Numbered from the stretch's first letter, positions 1 through 27,365 are shown. The stretch is 64,000 nt of DNA from the human T2T-CHM13v2.0 reference genome, Homo sapiens (GCF_009914755.1 NC_060929.1); one strand, 5' to 3'. Made by a program: numbers and translations. Notes: generated from the sequence alone by a model not told the origin.

Positions 1-200
1 GAAAATAATTTTCAACCCAGAATTTCACATCCAGCCAAACTAAGCTTCATAATGAAGGATAAATAAAATATTTTACAGACAAGCAAATGCTGAGAGATTT
101 TGTCACCACCAGGCCTGCCCTAGAAGAGCTCCTGAAGGAAGCACTAAACATGGAAAGCAACAACCAGTACCAGCTGCTTCAAAATCACACCAAAATGTAA
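1..200 (+). pseudogene. ORF1: L1-A ORF1 C-terminal fragment
   Basis: Colinear with 10248-10448, which translates to the ORF1p C-terminus (…RDFVTTRPAL…). Confidence 0.9.
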
Positions 201-263
201 AGACCATGGAGACTAGGAAGAAACTGCATCAACTAACGAGCAAAATAACTAGCTAACATCAGA

Positions 264-3200
264 ATGACAGGATCAAATTCACACATAACAATATTAACTT
301 TAAATGTAAATGGACTAAGTGCTCCAATTAAAAGACACAGACTGGCAAATTGGATAAAGAGACAAGACCCATCAGTGTGCTGTATTCAGGGAACCCATCT
401 CATGTGCAGAGACACACATAGGCTCAAAATAAAAGGATGGAGGAAGATCTACCAAGCAAATGGAAAACAAAAAAGGCAGGGGTTGCAATCCTAGTCTGTG
501 ATAAAACAGACTTTAAGCCAATAAAGATCCAAAGAGACCAAGAAGGCCATTACATAATGGTAAAGGGATCAATTCAACAAGAAGAGCTAACTATCCTAAA
601 TATATATGCAACCAATACAGCAGCACCCAGATTCATGAAGCAAGTTATGAGTGAACTACAAGAGACTTAGACTCCCACACATTAATAATGGGAGACTTTA
701 ACACCCCACTGTCAACAATAGACAGATCATTGAGACAGAAAGTTAACAGGGATATCCAGGAATTGAACTTGGCTCTGCACCAAGTGACCTAATGGACATC
801 TAAAGGACTCTCCACCACAAATCAACAGAATATACTTTTCCTTCAGCACCACACCACACTTATTCCAAAATTGACCACATACTTGGAAGTAAAGCTCTCC
901 TCAGCAAATGTAAAAGAACAGAAATTATAACAAATTGTCTCTCAGACCACGGTGCAAACAAACTAGAACTCAGGATTAAGAAACTCACTCAAAACTGCTC
1001 AACTAAATGGAAACTGAGCAACCTGCGCCTGAATGACTACTGGGTACATAGCGAAATGAAGGCAGAAATAAAGATGTTCTTTGAAACCAACGAGAACAAA
1101 GACACAACATACCAGAATCTCTGGGACACATTCAAAGCAGTGTGTAGATGGAAATTTACAACACTAAATGCCCACAAGAGAAAGCAGGAAAGATCCAAAA
1201 TAGACACCCTAACAACACAATTAAAAGAACTAAAAAAGCAAGAATAAATACATTCAAAAGCTAGCAGAAGGCAAGACATAACTAAAATCAGAGCAGAACT
1301 GAAGGAAATAGAGACACAAAAAGCCATTCAAAAAATTAATGAATTGAGGAGCTGGTTTTTTGAAAGGATCAACAAAATTGACAGACCACTAACAAGACTA
1401 ATAAAGAAGAAAAGAGAGAAGAATCACATAGATGTAATAAAAAATGATAAAGGGGATATCACCACCGATCCCACAGAAATACAAGCTACCATCAGAGAAT
1501 ACTACAAATATTTCTATGCAAATAAACTAGAAAATCTAGAAGAAATTGACAAATTCCTCGACACATACACCCTCCCAACACTAAACCAGGAAGAAGTTGA
1601 ATCTCTGAATACACCAATAACAGGCTCTGAAATTGTGGCGATAATCAATAGCTTACCAACCAAAAAGAGTGCAGGACCAGATGGATTCACAGCCGAATTC
1701 TACCAGAGGTAAAAGGAGGAACTGGTACCATTCCTTCTGAAACTATTCCAATCAATAGAAAAAGAGGGAATCCTCCCTAACTCATTTTATGAGGCCAGCA
1801 TCATCCTGATACCAAAGCCAGGCAGAGACACAACCAAAAAAGAGAACTTTAGACCAATATAGTTGAAGAATATTGAGGCAAAAATTCTCAGTAAAAAACT
1901 GGCAAAACAAATCCAGTAGCACATCAAAAAGCTTATCCATCCTGATCAAGTAGGCTTCATCCCTGGGATGCAAGACTGGTTCAATATATGCAAATCAATA
2001 AATGTAATCCAGCATATAAACAGAACCAAAGACAAAAACCACATGATTATCTCAGTAGATGCAGAAAAGGCCTTTGACAAATTCAACAACCCTTCATGCT
2101 AAAAGCTCTCAATAAATTAGGTATTGATGGGACGTATCTCAAAATAATAAGAGTGATCTATGACAAACCCACAGCCAATATCATACTGAATGGACAAAAA
2201 CTGCAAGCATTCCCTTTGAAAACTGGCACAAGAGAGGGATGCCCTCTCTCACCACTCCTATTCAACATAGTGTTGGAAGTTCTGGCCAGGGCAATTAGGC
2301 AGGAGAAGGAAATAAAGGGTATGCAACTATGAAAAGAGGAAGTCAAATTGTCCGTGTTTGCAGACGACGTGATTGTATATCTAGAAAACCCCATTGTCTC
2401 AGCCCAAAATCTCCTTAAGCTGATAAGCAACTTCAGCAAAGTCTCAGGATACAAAATCAATGTACAAAAATCACAAGCATTCTTATACACCAATAACAGA
2501 CAAACAGAGAGCCAAATCATGAGTGAACTCCCATTCATAATTGCTTCAAAGAGAGTTAAATACCTAGGAATCCAACTTACAAGGGACGTGAAGGACCACT
2601 TCAAGGAGAATTACAAACCACTGCTCAATGAAATAAAAGAAGATACAAAGAAATGGAAGAAAGGGTAGAAAGAATAAATACCATGAAAAAAGGCATACTG
2701 CCCAAGGTAATTTATAGATTCAAAGCCATCCCCATCAAACTACCAATGACTGTGTTCACAGAATTGGAAAAAACTACTTTAAAGTTCATGTGCAACCAAA
2801 AAAGAGCCCGCATCCCCAAATCAATCCTAAGCCAAAAGAACAAAGCTGGAGGCATCACACTACCTGACTTCAAACTATACTACAAGGCTACAGTAACCAA
2901 AACAGCATGGTACTGCTATCAAAACAGAGATATAGATCAATGGAAGAGAACAGAGCCCTCAGAAAAAACACCACATAGCTACAACTATCTGATCTTTGAC
3001 AAACCTGAGAAAAACAAGCAATGGGGAAAGGATTCCCTATTTAATAAATGGTGCTGGGAAAACTGGCTAGCCATATGTAGAAAGCTGAAACTGGATCCCT
3101 TCCTTACACATTATACAAAAAATAATTCAAGATGTTTTAAAGACTTAAACGTTAGACTTAAAACCATAAAAACCCTATTAGAAAACCTAGGCATTATCAT

Positions 3201-25235: not shown

Positions 25236-25298
25236 TCTGATGTTAGCTGGTTATTTTGCTCGTTAGTTGATGCAGGTTCTTCCTAGTCTTGATGGTCT

Positions 25299-26332
25299 CT
25301 ATATTTTGGCATGATTTTGCAGTGGCTGGTACCGGTTGTTCCTTTTCACTTTTAGTGCCTCCTTCAGGAGCTCTTTTAGGGCAGGGCTGGTGGTGACAAA
25401 ATCTCTCAGCATTTTCTTGTCTATAAAGTATTTTATTTCTCCTTCATTTATGAAGCTTAGTTTGGCTGGATATGAAATTCTGTGTTGGAAATTCTTTATT
25501 TAAGACTGTTGAATATTGGCCCCCACTCTCTTCTGGCTTGTAGAGTTTCTGCGGAGAGATCCGTTGTTAGTCTGATGGGCTTACCTTTGTGGGTGACCCG
25601 ACCTATCTCTGGCTGCCGTTAAGACTTTTTCCTTCATTTCAAATTTGGTGAATCTGACAATTATTTGTCTTGGAGTTGCTCTTCCCGAGAAATATATTTG
25701 TGGTGTTCTCCGTATTTCCTGAATGTGAATGTTGGCCTGCCTTGCTAGCTTAGGGAAGTTCTCCTGGATAATATTCTGCAGAGTGTTGACCAACTTGGTT
25801 CCATTCACCCCGTCATTTTCAGGTACACCAATCAGACGTAGATTTGGTCTTTTCACATAGTCCCATATTTCTTGGAACCTTTGCTCATTTCTATTTATTC
25901 TTTTTTCTCTAAACTTCCCTTCTCACTTCATTTCATATATTTCATCTTCCATCACTGATACCCTCTCTTCCAGTTGATCACATCAGCTCCTGAGGCTTCT
26001 GCATTCTTCACATAGTTCTTGAGCCTTGCCTTTCAGCTCCATCAGCTCCTTTAAGCACTTCTCTGTATTTTTTATTCTAGTTGTACATTTGTCTAAATTT
26101 TTTTCAAAGTTTTTAACTTCTTTGGCTTTGGTTTGAATTTCCTCCTGTAGCTCTGTTTGATTGTTTGATCATCTGAAATCTTTGATCGTCTGAAGCCTTC
26201 TTCTCTCAACTCATCAAAGTCATCCTCCATCCATGTTTGGTCTGTTGCTGGTGAGGAACTGCATTCCTTTTTAGGAGGAGAGGCATGCTTCTTTTTAGAG
26301 TTTCCAGTTTTTCTGCTCTGTTTTTTTCCCGT
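25299..26332 (-). pseudogene. ORF1: L1-D ORF1, disrupted; start codon mutated to ACG
   Basis: …KKTGKKQSRKTGNSK… (ATG>ACG at 26330-26332). KRPNLRLIGVPE fragment at 25581-25856. Stop lies 63 bp before ORF2. Confidence 0.93.
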
Positions 26333-27365
26333 CTTTTTGGTTTCATCTACTTTCGGTCTTTGATGATGGTGATGATGTACAGATGGGTTTTTCTTGTGAA
26401 TGTCCTTTTTGTTTGTTAGTTTTCCTTCTAACAGACAGGACCCTAAGCTGCAGGTCTGTTGGAGTTTCCTAGAGGTCCCCTCCAGATCCTGTTTGCCTGG
26501 GTAGCAGCAGAGGTGGCTGCAGAACAGTGGATTTTCATGAACCGTGAATGCTGCTGTCTGAAAATTCATCTGGAAGTTTTGTCTCAGAAGAGTACGCGGC
26601 CGTGTGAGATGTCAGTCTACCCCTACTGGGACATGCCTCCTACTTAGGCTGCTTGGGGGTCAGGGACCAGAGACCCACTTGAAGAGGCAGACTGACCTTT
26701 CTCAGATCTCCAACTGCATGCTGGGAGAACCACAGCTGTCTTCAAATCTGTCAGACATGGACATTTAAGTCTGCAGAGGTTACTGCTGTCTTTTTGTTTG
26801 TCTGTGCCCTGCCCCCAGAGGTTGAGCCTACAGAGGCAGGCAGGCCCCTTGAGCTGTGGTGGGCTCCACCCAGTTAGAGCTTCCTGGCTGCTTTGTTTAC
26901 ATAAGCAAGCCTGGGCAAGGGCGGATGTCCCTCCCCCATCCTCACTGCCACCTTGCGGTTTGATCTCAGACAGCTGTGCTAGCAATCAGTGAGCCTCTGT
27001 GGGCATAGGACCCTCCAAGCCAGGTGCGGGATATAATCTCCGGGTATGCCCTTTTTTAAGCCCGTTGGGAAAGTGCAGTATTAGGGTGGGAGTGACATGA
27101 ATTTCCAAGTGTGGGCTTTCACCCTTTCTTTGACTAGGAAAGGGAACTCCCTCACCCCTTGTGATTACTGAGTGAGGCAATGCCTTGCCCTGCATTGGCT
27201 TATGCACATTGCACTGCACCCACTGTCCTGCACCCACTGTCTGGCACTCCCTAGTGAGATGAACCCGGTACCTCAGATGGAAATGCAGAAATCAATTGTC
27301 TTCTGTGTAACTCATGCTGGGAGCTGAAGATGGGAGCTCCTCCTATTCGGCCATCTTGGCTTCCC
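26333..27365 (-). promoter_or_regulatory. L1-D 5'UTR promoter with YY1 site and the ~129-bp ZNF93-target segment
   Basis: YY1 motif reverse complement GGCCATCTTG at 27349-27358. Extra segment 26466-26593 is absent from L1-B. Confidence 0.8.
26918..26992 (+). pseudogene. ORF0: L1-D ORF0 remnant (ATG>AGG, early TGA)
   Basis: RADVPPPSSLPPCGLISDSCASNQ* at the end of ORF 26798-26992 aligns with the ORF0p N-terminus. Confidence 0.7.

What the first reader, a model, noticed from the sequence alone, without database searches (positions are those of the whole stretch)
120..26625. Three independently inserted L1s share private variants in every pairwise combination: patchwork conversion among centromeric L1s
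Seen, A+B only: CCTAGAAG, GAAAGCAAC, CAGCTGCTTC…CACACC, ACCATGG (120-210 / 10368-10458), GACCAAG, GCAAGACAT, TCCGTGT, TACCATAA. Seen, A+D only: CATCAGAATG (258 / ~25235), CCACCACAAA (812 / ~24680), TTTACA (1155 / ~24340), CCAACACT (1575 / ~23915), ACAAAGAAAT (2645 / ~22845), AAGATCTTC (3295 / ~22187). Seen, B+D only: GGGGTAGAC, TTCACATTC, CAAGAA…AAATGGC (QE.GKQKMAG), AAAGACGG, ATCCAACAT (IQHDQ), GATTCAG (IDS). In each case the third copy, where it covers the site, has the state I recall as L1PA consensus. Most changes are non-CpG transversions and many change amino acids. Yet the copies have different target sites, opposite orientations and different 5'UTR classes. Inference: no single tree fits, so short-tract ectopic gene conversion has shuffled mutations among L1s trapped in alpha satellite (here or with a wider centromeric pool). 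The satellite homogenising machinery would then also have acted on its L1 passengers.
Basis: partly seen in the sequence, partly recalled or inferred. Interest (0 to 1): 0.8.

Follow-up and report, generated by a model that had tools for sequence, protein, structure and literature searches.

The report
Short gene conversion between neighbouring L1s
Three old L1 retrotransposons that landed separately in dead chromosome 5 alpha satellite have since copied a few very short stretches from one another, an ordinary kind of local DNA repair, while most of their other shared variants look like chance or common L1 lineage variants.

Summary
A (1-4281, +), B (8551-13707, +) and D (21193-27371, -) are independent L1PA insertions in unhomogenised monomeric alpha satellite.

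I polarised the variants with 49 to 59 genomic L1 copies and compared the sharing with an empirical null.
- **A-B:** real excess. 10 shared rare non-CpG alleles against 2.5 expected, concentrated in one tract (A 85-249 = B 10333-10497). The tract has 1 mismatch in 165 bp against 7.6% overall, and 8 shared non-majority alleles. A 27-mer carrying four of them occurs only in A and B in the whole genome.
- **B-D:** probable. Two two-allele micro-haplotypes are found only in B and D genome-wide. Independent mutation predicts 0.48 and 0.04 such copies.
- **A-D:** chance level, 6 against 3.8 expected, with no clustering.
- **Shared by all three:** two alleles that are common dispersed L1 variants (149 and 162 copies).

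Best reading: ordinary short-tract non-allelic gene conversion between repeats 10-14 kb apart. Nothing ties it to satellite homogenisation. The flanking satellite has no off-diagonal match of 93% identity or more over 150 bp or more. Conversion between nearby Alus and between L1PA3s is already in print. Verdict: partly supported, a new member of a known kind, modest interest.

The parts
1..4281 (+). L1 copy A (L1PA, older rung). Its 5' part lies upstream of the window. It is 5'-truncated at about position 349 of D and carries an antisense Alu just before window position 1.
   Evidence: Self-BLAST; upstream sequence and alpha-satellite flank; tree and diagnostic sites.
8551..13707 (+). L1 copy B. 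Full 5' end, lacks about 129 bp of 5'UTR and about 830 bp of the 3' part. Sits on a younger rung than A and D. Its flanks look like a target-site duplication by my reading of the junctions.
   Evidence: nested in a clade of 37-41 copies that excludes A and D, SH-like support 0.79-0.90.
15265..16517 (+). L1 copy C, a 3' fragment of 1.25 kb, more diverged (11.6-12% mismatches to A, B and D). No exchange detected.
   Evidence: longest concordant runs with A or D not significant, P 0.45 or higher.
21193..27371 (-). L1 copy D, full length 6.2 kb, inverted relative to A, B and C, older rung.
85..249 (+). A side of the A-B conversion tract. The maximum extent is 85-249. The minimum extent, 123-208, is set by the outermost shared private alleles. 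It covers the last codons of ORF1 and the start of the inter-ORF spacer.
   Evidence: 1 mismatch in 165 bp; 8 shared non-majority alleles; run test P 0.010; scan P 0.008; ORF1 C-terminus translated.
10333..10497 (+). B side of the A-B conversion tract (minimum extent 10371-10456).
   Evidence: Same as above. The 27-mer with four of the alleles is exact only at these two places in the genome.
10685..10734 (+). B side of candidate B-D micro-tract 1 (alleles at 10705 and 10723).
25013..25062 (-). D side of candidate B-D micro-tract 1 (alleles at 25042 and 25024). One D-private change lies inside it.
12054..12110 (+). B side of candidate B-D micro-tract 2 (alleles at 12067 and 12090).
23635..23691 (-). 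D side of candidate B-D micro-tract 2 (alleles at 23678 and 23655).
4282..8550 (.). Monomeric alpha satellite between A and B. The same kind fills the rest of the window. It is not homogenised.
   Evidence: TRF period 171, 73-82% matches; no off-diagonal match of 93% or more over 150 bp or more.

Best explanation
A, B and D are three independent L1PA insertions into an old, no longer homogenised layer of monomeric alpha satellite on the q side of the chromosome 5 centromere. A and D come from an older rung of the L1PA ladder and B from a younger one.

Most of what they share is ordinary:
- subfamily differences;
- two common dispersed lineage or recurrent alleles;
- the number of parallel hits expected between copies that each carry 3-4.4% private non-CpG changes.

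On top of that, break repair using the neighbouring copy as template has copied short stretches between them. This is non-crossover, non-allelic gene conversion between repeats 10-14 kb apart.
- One tract of 86-165 bp lies between A and B, which are direct repeats. It is recent relative to the insertions.
- Probably two micro-tracts of at least 18-24 bp and at most 49-57 bp lie between B and D, which are inverted repeats.

Shown: the tracts, their uniqueness in the genome, and the independence of the insertions. Inferred: the repair mechanism and the relative timing. Unknown: the direction of transfer.
For: **Independence of the insertions**
- Orientations differ. B and D are full length, and by my reading of the junctions each is flanked by a target-site duplication. 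A is 5'-truncated and flanked by satellite.
- B lacks a 5'UTR segment of about 129 bp that A and D have.
- At 40 non-CpG diagnostic sites and in a tree of 62 sequences (A, B, D and 59 genomic copies), A and D are basal. B is nested in a clade of 37-41 copies.

**A-B tract**
- 18 of 19 consecutive variable sites are concordant: runs of 7 and 11 separated by one B-private site. The longest run has P 0.010 on 434 variable sites.
- The longest stretch with at most 1 mismatch is 165 bp, against a null mean of 103.5 (P 0.008).
- 8 shared non-majority alleles lie inside it. Four (C158, T179, C188, A189) are carried by 0 of the 49 panel copies. G123 and G208 are also 0 of 49 and 0 of 10 further copies.
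- Of the 20 best genome hits fetched, out of 40 scored and 720 candidates, 0 carry G123, C158, T179 or C188. They differ from A at 6-7 of 140 bases, against 1 of 140 for B.
- The 27-mer is exact at 2 places in the genome, A and B. The 4 further places with up to 2 mismatches each lack two or more of the alleles.
- 4 of the 10 shared non-CpG alleles fall within 90 bp (P 0.011-0.022).

**B-D**
- 457A+474T: the exact 32-mer occurs only in B, and D has it with one private change. By my reading of the 85 rows, 55 have 457A only and 26 have 474T only, beside 2975 copies of the majority word. Independent doubles expected: 0.48.
- 1818A+1841G: the exact 35-mer occurs only in B and D. 4 copies have the first allele alone and 18 the second, beside 1705 majority words. 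Doubles expected: 0.04.
- 0 of 147 control pairs and 4 of 1176 panel pairs show two shared rare alleles within 30 bp. B-D shows two such pairs.

**Known precedent**
- Conversion is elevated between Alus less than 10 kb apart (Aleshin and Zhi 2010, as cited in PMC6598467, passage read).
- A conversion between L1PA3 LINEs was seen in long reads (PMC5829575, passage read).
Against: - The B-D stretches are not significant as low-divergence fragments. The longest concordant run is 5 (P 0.68). The longest stretch with at most 1 mismatch is 96 bp (P 0.39). Micro-tract 1 contains a D-private change. Given the 7 shared sites, the clustering test alone gives only P 0.03-0.04.
- The panels are the best-scoring genome hits, not a random sample, and they missed an allele carried by 162 copies (0 of 49). 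'Rare in the panel' is therefore weaker than 'rare in the genome'. Only the tract and micro-haplotype alleles, G262, T2919 and C1647 were counted genome-wide.
- The word counts need exact flanks, so diverged carriers are missed.
- All three copies carry both T2919 and C1647. I found no other copy with both in the rows that were listed. This triple sharing is not explained by the model as stated.
- One assembly only. No read-level or outgroup check was possible. Donor and recipient are unknown.
Confidence: 0.72

Rival explanations
1. One reading: pervasive patchwork conversion among all three L1s, or with a wider centromeric pool, driven by the machinery that homogenises alpha satellite.
For: - Two of the three pairs show exchange.
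- All three copies share T2919 and C1647. No other copy in the listed rows holds both, by my comparison of coordinates.
- Three of the 17 genome-wide carriers of the A/D allele G262 lie in chr12 pericentromere. Two of them, 14.5 kb apart and inverted, differ at 6 of the first 300 columns against 33 of the next 360.
Against: - A-D sharing is at chance level (6 against 3.8, P 0.18) and is not clustered.
- There are no significant fragments in the 5' 1.35 kb or the 3' 1.2 kb.
- The A/B and B/D haplotypes exist in no third copy, so there is no wider pool as donor.
- The satellite around the L1s is 73-82% alike between monomers, with no high-identity patches.
- L1s are held to accumulate only after homogenisation has stopped (PMC2729386, passages read).
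Confidence: 0.1
2. No exchange at all. Everything shared is parallel mutation at mutable sites plus polymorphism of L1 source lineages.
For: - The empirical null predicts 2.5-3.8 shared rare alleles per pair.
- T2919 (162 copies), C1647 (149 copies) and G262 (17 copies) all occur in dispersed copies.
- The panels are a biased sample.
Against: - It cannot explain 1 mismatch in 165 bp between copies that differ by 7.6%.
- It cannot explain a 27-mer with four rare alleles found only in two copies 10 kb apart.
- It cannot explain two double haplotypes found only in B and D, when 0.48 and 0.04 are expected in the whole genome.
- 0 of 10 T2919 carriers and 0 of the 2 G262 carriers fetched over about 2.9 kb carry the tract or micro-haplotype alleles.
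Confidence: 0.07
3. Assembly or polishing artefact: reads from one L1 were used to correct the other.
For: Not testable here. The tract is short and lies in a repeat-rich pericentromere.
Against: The flanks of the tract differ at about 8-9% (8 differences in the 84 bp before it). Long reads spanning it should therefore place uniquely. The tract also carries one B-private difference. This is an argument, not a test.
Confidence: 0.05
4. A and B, or B and D, are sister copies of one rare source element, and the shared alleles are its private mutations.
For: Shared rare alleles are also scattered outside the tract (A 539, 841, 1277, 1435, 2354).
Against: - B sits on a different ladder rung and lacks the 129 bp segment.
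- A source haplotype would not remove the private differences inside the tract.
- No third member of such a lineage exists in the genome. Two members landing 10-14 kb apart by chance is very unlikely.
Confidence: 0.04

Closest known systems
Non-allelic (interlocus) gene conversion between neighbouring dispersed repeats, as described for Alu elements less than 10 kb apart (Aleshin and Zhi 2010, as cited in PMC6598467) and for a pair of L1PA3 LINEs (PMC5829575, Fig. 4S, text passage read)
   Same: - Short tract between paralogous, independently inserted elements about 10 kb apart on one chromosome.
- Private mutations of one copy transferred together.
- Locally lowered divergence.
- Conflict with the subfamily tree.
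   Different: - Here the partners are about 90-92% alike and sit in pericentromeric satellite.
- One pair is inverted.
- The B-D stretches are very short (at most 49-57 bp) and rest on haplotype uniqueness, not on a significant low-divergence fragment.
Concerted evolution (homogenisation) of alpha-satellite arrays by unequal exchange and conversion (reviewed in PMC2729386, passages read)
   Same: Both are homology-directed copying between repeats in a centromere region.
   Different: Homogenisation keeps repeat units near-identical over large arrays. Here monomers are 73-82% alike, and only about 0.3 kb of some 15 kb of L1 shows exchange. This layer is of the kind said to have lost homogenisation before L1s could accumulate.
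Conversion without crossing over in centromeres (maize centromere retrotransposon markers, 'centromeres convert but don't cross'; recalled, not read here)
   Same: Retroelement sequence inside centromeric DNA used as a marker that reveals conversion.
   Different: That work concerns allelic exchange in active centromere cores. This is ectopic exchange between paralogous L1s in a dead flanking layer.
L1PA subfamily ladder and source-lineage polymorphism (Khan et al. 2006, recalled; 129 bp 5'UTR loss in younger L1PA3, Jacobs et al. 2014, recalled)
   Same: It explains the A+D against B differences at 7 or more non-CpG diagnostic sites, the B 5'UTR deletion, and the common alleles C1647 and 2650G.
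   Different: It cannot produce haplotypes confined to two neighbouring copies, or a stretch without private differences.

Membership tests
Non-allelic gene conversion tract | The partners are paralogous copies of independent origin, not a duplication of one locus | tested here: met
   Orientations differ. B and D are full length, and their flanks look like target-site duplications by my reading of the junctions. A is 5'-truncated with a satellite flank. There is a 129 bp 5'UTR difference. The copies sit on different ladder rungs. The flanking satellite has no match of 93% or more.
Non-allelic gene conversion tract | A segment whose divergence between the partners is significantly lower than in the flanks | tested here: met
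   A-B: 1 mismatch in 165 bp against 7.4-7.6% overall; scan P 0.008; run test P 0.010. For B-D this feature is NOT met (P 0.39 and 0.68).
Non-allelic gene conversion tract | Derived variants confined to the two partners and clustered in the segment | tested here: met
   A-B: the 27-mer is exact at 2 places in the genome, and the alleles are in 0 of 49, 0 of 10 and 0 of 20 other copies. B-D: two double haplotypes occur only in B and D against 0.48 and 0.04 expected.
Non-allelic gene conversion tract | An orthologous or allelic copy that still shows the state before conversion, giving donor and recipient | not testable with these tools
   Only one human assembly is held. No ape or pangenome sequence is available.
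Alpha-satellite homogenisation (concerted evolution of the array) | High identity between repeat units or higher-order units across the array | tested here: not met
   TRF gives 73-82% matches at period 171 or 342. Self-comparison finds 7 off-diagonal matches of 90% or more in the whole window, and none of 93% or more over 150 bp or more.
Ordinary L1 source-lineage polymorphism | The shared allele occurs in many dispersed copies on other chromosomes | tested here: inconclusive
   Met for C1647 (149 places), T2919 (162 places) and 2650G (7 of 49). Weakly met for G262 (17 places). Not met for the A-B tract or the B-D micro-haplotypes. The other scattered singles were checked only in 49-59 copies.

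The most novel reading that the evidence does not exclude
Dead pericentromeric satellite layers may be zones of raised short-tract ectopic conversion without crossing over. If so, the L1s trapped in them exchange patches far more often than L1 pairs at the same spacing on chromosome arms. Three observations would be marks of that process: the two exchanging pairs here, the triple sharing of T2919 and C1647, and the chr12 pericentromeric pair that shares G262 with a low-divergence stretch. L1 passengers would then give a countable record of recombination in regions where crossovers are suppressed.
Probability: 0.15. Interest if true: 0.6.

Novelty: new member of a known kind. Interest (0 to 1): 0.33.

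Why it matters
L1 subfamily and divergence are used to date alpha-satellite layers (PMC2729386). Exchange between neighbouring L1s can distort both, though here it touches only about 0.3 kb of some 15 kb. The case also shows a practical point. With complete assemblies, a haplotype word counted across the whole genome separates local conversion from lineage polymorphism and from parallel decay. If the same test were run on all close L1 pairs, it would measure whether pericentromeres convert more than chromosome arms. That question is open in regions where crossovers cannot be scored.

Tried and rejected
- **Different subfamilies as the whole explanation.** The nearest relatives of A, B and D are about equally far from all three. 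The rare shared alleles are absent from all panels.
- **T2919 as marker of a hidden sub-lineage holding A, B and D.** I sampled 20 of the 162 carriers. 6 were truncated or very diverged. 12 were extended and 2 of those dropped as truncated. The remaining 10 are spread over the tree. They carry none of the A-B tract alleles and none of the B-D micro-haplotype alleles, and only sporadic single matches at other pairwise sites.
- **G262 as marker of an A/D lineage.** Of the 15 other carriers, 1 has 817A and 1 has 457A. The two fetched over 2.9 kb have none of 1159C, 1579C or 2790G.
- **More tracts in the 5' 1.35 kb (A upstream, B, D) and the 3' 1.2 kb (A, C, D).** No significant runs.
- **Clusters of private changes as imports from a foreign L1.** Not significant: A has 9 in 50 bp (P 0.10) and D has 10 (P 0.06).
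- **Chromosome-arm controls.** The two close pairs that share 457A (chr5 81.5 Mb and chr12 71.08 Mb) turned out to be duplications: 22 and 9 shared rare alleles, and about 3-5% and under 3% divergence. They say nothing about conversion on arms.
- **First MAFFT run.** It spread B's last 223 bp across its internal deletion and inflated A-B differences. Fixed by splitting B at the deletion.
- **Literature.** Searches listed no paper on conversion among L1s embedded in alpha satellite. I read only the listings and passages of four papers.

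
Full report
**Layout**

The window is monomeric alpha satellite with period 171 bp and 73-82% matches between neighbouring units. 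It is interrupted by four L1 pieces and one Alu.

| Piece | Window position | Strand | Notes |
|---|---|---|---|
| A | 1-4281 | + | Continues upstream of the window |
| B | 8551-13707 | + | About 830 bp missing from the 3' part |
| C | 15265-16517 | + | 3' fragment |
| D | 21193-27371 | - | Full length |

The window's own genome can be searched. With it I fetched the part of A that lies upstream. A is 5'-truncated at about position 349 of D and abuts satellite. It carries an antisense Alu that ends just before window position 1. By my reading of the junctions, B and D are each flanked by a target-site duplication. B lacks a 5'UTR segment of about 129 bp that A and D have. From memory (Jacobs et al. 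2014, not read here), this resembles the loss seen in younger L1PA3.

Mismatch-only distances are A-B 262 of 3443 (7.6%), A-D 387 of 4272 (9.1%) and B-D 515 of 5148 (10.0%).

The logic needs care, because with three copies each two-state site is a 2:1 split. Of 3438 three-way columns, 172 are AB|D, 142 are BD|A, 109 are AD|B and 11 have three states. 'Shared by A and B only' means something only if the shared state is derived.

I therefore built panels of genomic L1 copies.
- 29 best hits to A. 4 were dropped for 16-18% mismatch.
- 12 best hits to D.
- 12 best hits to B.

That gives 49 copies over 3213 three-way columns. All 49 are about equally far from A (6-8%), B (4.4-6.8%) and D (6.1-8%). 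The three copies therefore sit around one region of the L1PA ladder with large private loads: 127, 94 and 140 non-CpG non-majority sites, against a panel mean of 38.

**How much sharing does chance give?**

I counted alleles shared by two sequences that are non-majority and carried by at most 2 other panel copies. For 147 pairs of A, B or D with an unrelated copy on another chromosome, the count scales with the product of private loads. Observed means are 1.04, 0.86 and 1.06 against 1.11, 0.82 and 1.22 expected. Scaled to the three pairs:

| Pair | Observed | Expected | P |
|---|---|---|---|
| A-B | 10 | 2.5 | 3e-4 |
| A-D | 6 | 3.8 | 0.18 |
| B-D | 7 | 2.8 | 0.025 |

'Every pairwise combination' is therefore not upheld. 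A-D is what parallel decay of two 4% diverged copies predicts.

**The A-B tract**

A run test on the 434 variable three-way sites singles out one place. From A 84 to 250, 18 of 19 variable sites agree between A and B: runs of 7 and 11 split by one B-private site. The longest run has P 0.010. No A-D or B-D run is significant (P 0.27, 0.68).

Between A 85 and 249 the two copies differ once in 165 bp. A random placement of their 237 mismatches gives such a stretch with P 0.008.

Inside the tract they share eight non-majority alleles.
- G123, C158, T179, C188, A189 and G208 are in 0 of 49 panel copies.
- A166 is in 9 of 49 and T175 in 6 of 49.

A search with A 96-235 scored 40 of 720 candidates. 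B is 99% identical and the next best are 96%. Of the 20 best that I fetched, 0 carry G123, C158, T179 or C188.

A 27-mer with four of the alleles is exact at two places in 3.1 Gb, A and B. The four places within two mismatches each lack two or more of the alleles.

The tract covers the last codons of ORF1. A and B read ...ALEELLKEALNMESNN(Q/K)YQLLQNHTKM*, where D reads ...ALKELLKEALKVKRNNRYQPLQNHAKI*.

A shared source cannot explain this, for three reasons.
- It would not remove the roughly 12 private differences expected in 165 bp.
- No third member of such a lineage exists.
- A and B sit on different rungs. At 40 non-CpG diagnostic sites A and D match the older group and B an intermediate one. 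In a tree built without the tract, B is nested in a clade of 37-41 copies that excludes A and D, through nodes with support 0.79-0.90.

One copy's private mutations, about 5% over 165 bp, were copied into the other. With one difference since, the event is recent relative to the insertions (inference). The direction cannot be told.

**B-D**

Two pairs of shared rare alleles lie close together: A-coordinates 457 and 474, and 1818 and 1841.

- First pair. Genome-wide, the 32-mer with the first pair is exact only in B, and D has it with one private change. By my reading of the 85 rows within one mismatch, 55 carry 457A alone and 26 carry 474T alone. The majority word occurs 2975 times. About 0.48 double carriers are expected in the whole genome if the alleles are independent.
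- Second pair. The 35-mer is exact only in B and D. 4 copies carry 1818A alone and 18 carry 1841G alone, beside 1705 majority words. About 0.04 doubles are expected.
- Controls. No control pair (0 of 147) and only 4 of 1176 panel pairs share two rare alleles within 30 bp.

Against this, the stretches are short (at most 49 and 57 bp) and the first contains a D-private change. They are not significant as low-divergence fragments. The clustering test, given seven shared sites, yields only P 0.03-0.04. I rate exchange between B and D as probable, not shown.

**The rest**

All six A+D variants are scattered singles.
- G262 occurs in 15 other dispersed copies. They do not carry the other A/D alleles: 817A is in 1 of 15, and the two copies fetched over 2.9 kb have none.
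- 2650G (ACAAAGAAAT) is a subfamily variant, in 7 of 49.

Two alleles are shared by all three copies. T at A 2919 is in 0 of 49 panel copies but at 162 places in the genome. These are common dispersed variants. Ten T2919 carriers spread over the whole tree and carry none of the tract or micro-haplotype alleles.

They also show that my panels, being best-scoring hits, miss alleles at about 5% frequency. That all three copies hold both alleles, and that I saw no other copy with both in the listed rows, remains unexplained.

No significant fragment was found in the 5' 1352 columns or in the 3' 1227 columns shared with C.

**Mechanism and the centromere claim**

The pattern fits non-crossover repair of a break using the neighbouring L1 as template. 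The features are short tracts, partners 10-14 kb apart in direct (A-B) or inverted (B-D) orientation, and no rearrangement.

Nothing ties it to satellite homogenisation. The surrounding monomers are 73-82% alike. A self-comparison of the window finds only 7 off-diagonal matches of 90% or more, and none of 93% or more over 150 bp or more.

The literature I read agrees.
- L1s are used to date the moment a layer stopped being homogenised (PMC2729386, passages).
- Conversion is elevated between Alus less than 10 kb apart (Aleshin and Zhi 2010, as cited in PMC6598467, passage).
- A conversion between L1PA3 LINEs has been seen in long reads (PMC5829575, passage).
- A 2026 preprint lists gene conversion among the processes that blur old L1 histories (PMC13192797, one passage).
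- Searches listed nothing on conversion among L1s inside alpha satellite. I saw listings only.

My attempt at arm controls failed. The two close pairs sharing 457A are duplications. One lead points the other way: two inverted L1s 14.5 kb apart in chr12 pericentromere share G262 and differ at 6 of the first 300 columns against 33 of the next 360.

**Verdict**

There is one clear and two probable short conversion tracts between neighbouring, independently inserted L1s, on a background of ordinary lineage differences and chance parallel decay. This is a new instance of a known process. Whether pericentromeres are enriched for it is open and testable.

Noticed in passing
window 42882-43174: A young-looking Alu, CpG-rich with a long A tail, inserted in alpha satellite. 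It has a clear target-site duplication (AAGAGCTCCAAAT on both sides).
   Followed up: no
L001 about 205-501 (just upstream of window position 1): An antisense Alu is inserted into ORF1 of copy A. B and D have no Alu there. It ends about 80 bp before the A-B tract begins.
   Followed up: partly
window 13483-13484 (B), against A 3226-4054: B has lost about 830 bp of its 3' part. The first alignment smeared B's last 223 bp across this gap.
   Followed up: yes
B near window 9310, against D positions about 770-898: B lacks about 129 bp of 5'UTR that A and D keep. From memory, this resembles the ZNF93-site loss of younger L1PA3. I did not test that link.
   Followed up: partly
window 2919 (A), 13177 (B), about 22567 (D); and D position 1647 = window about 25725, B about 10019: All three copies carry T2919 (162 genome copies) and C1647 (149 genome copies). 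In the listed rows I found no other copy with both.
   Followed up: partly
L116-L118 (G000:C12:33.20-33.96 Mb): Three of the 17 genome-wide carriers of G262 lie in chr12 pericentromere. L117 and L118, 14.5 kb apart and inverted, differ at 6 of the first 300 columns against 33 of the next 360. This may be another local conversion.
   Followed up: partly
window 1847-1897 (A): Nine A-private changes fall within 51 bp. As a cluster this is not significant (P 0.10).
   Followed up: partly
L123/L124 (chr5 81.5 Mb) and L125/L126 (chr12 71.08 Mb): Close L1 pairs on chromosome arms that share the rare allele 457A are old and recent duplications (22 and 9 shared rare alleles), not conversions.
   Followed up: yes
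window 4282, 13712, 16518: A, B and C all inserted at nearly the same place in the alpha monomer, the A-rich CAAAAGAAAGG stretch. D used a T-rich site on the other strand. This looks like an L1 endonuclease target preference within the monomer.
   Followed up: no
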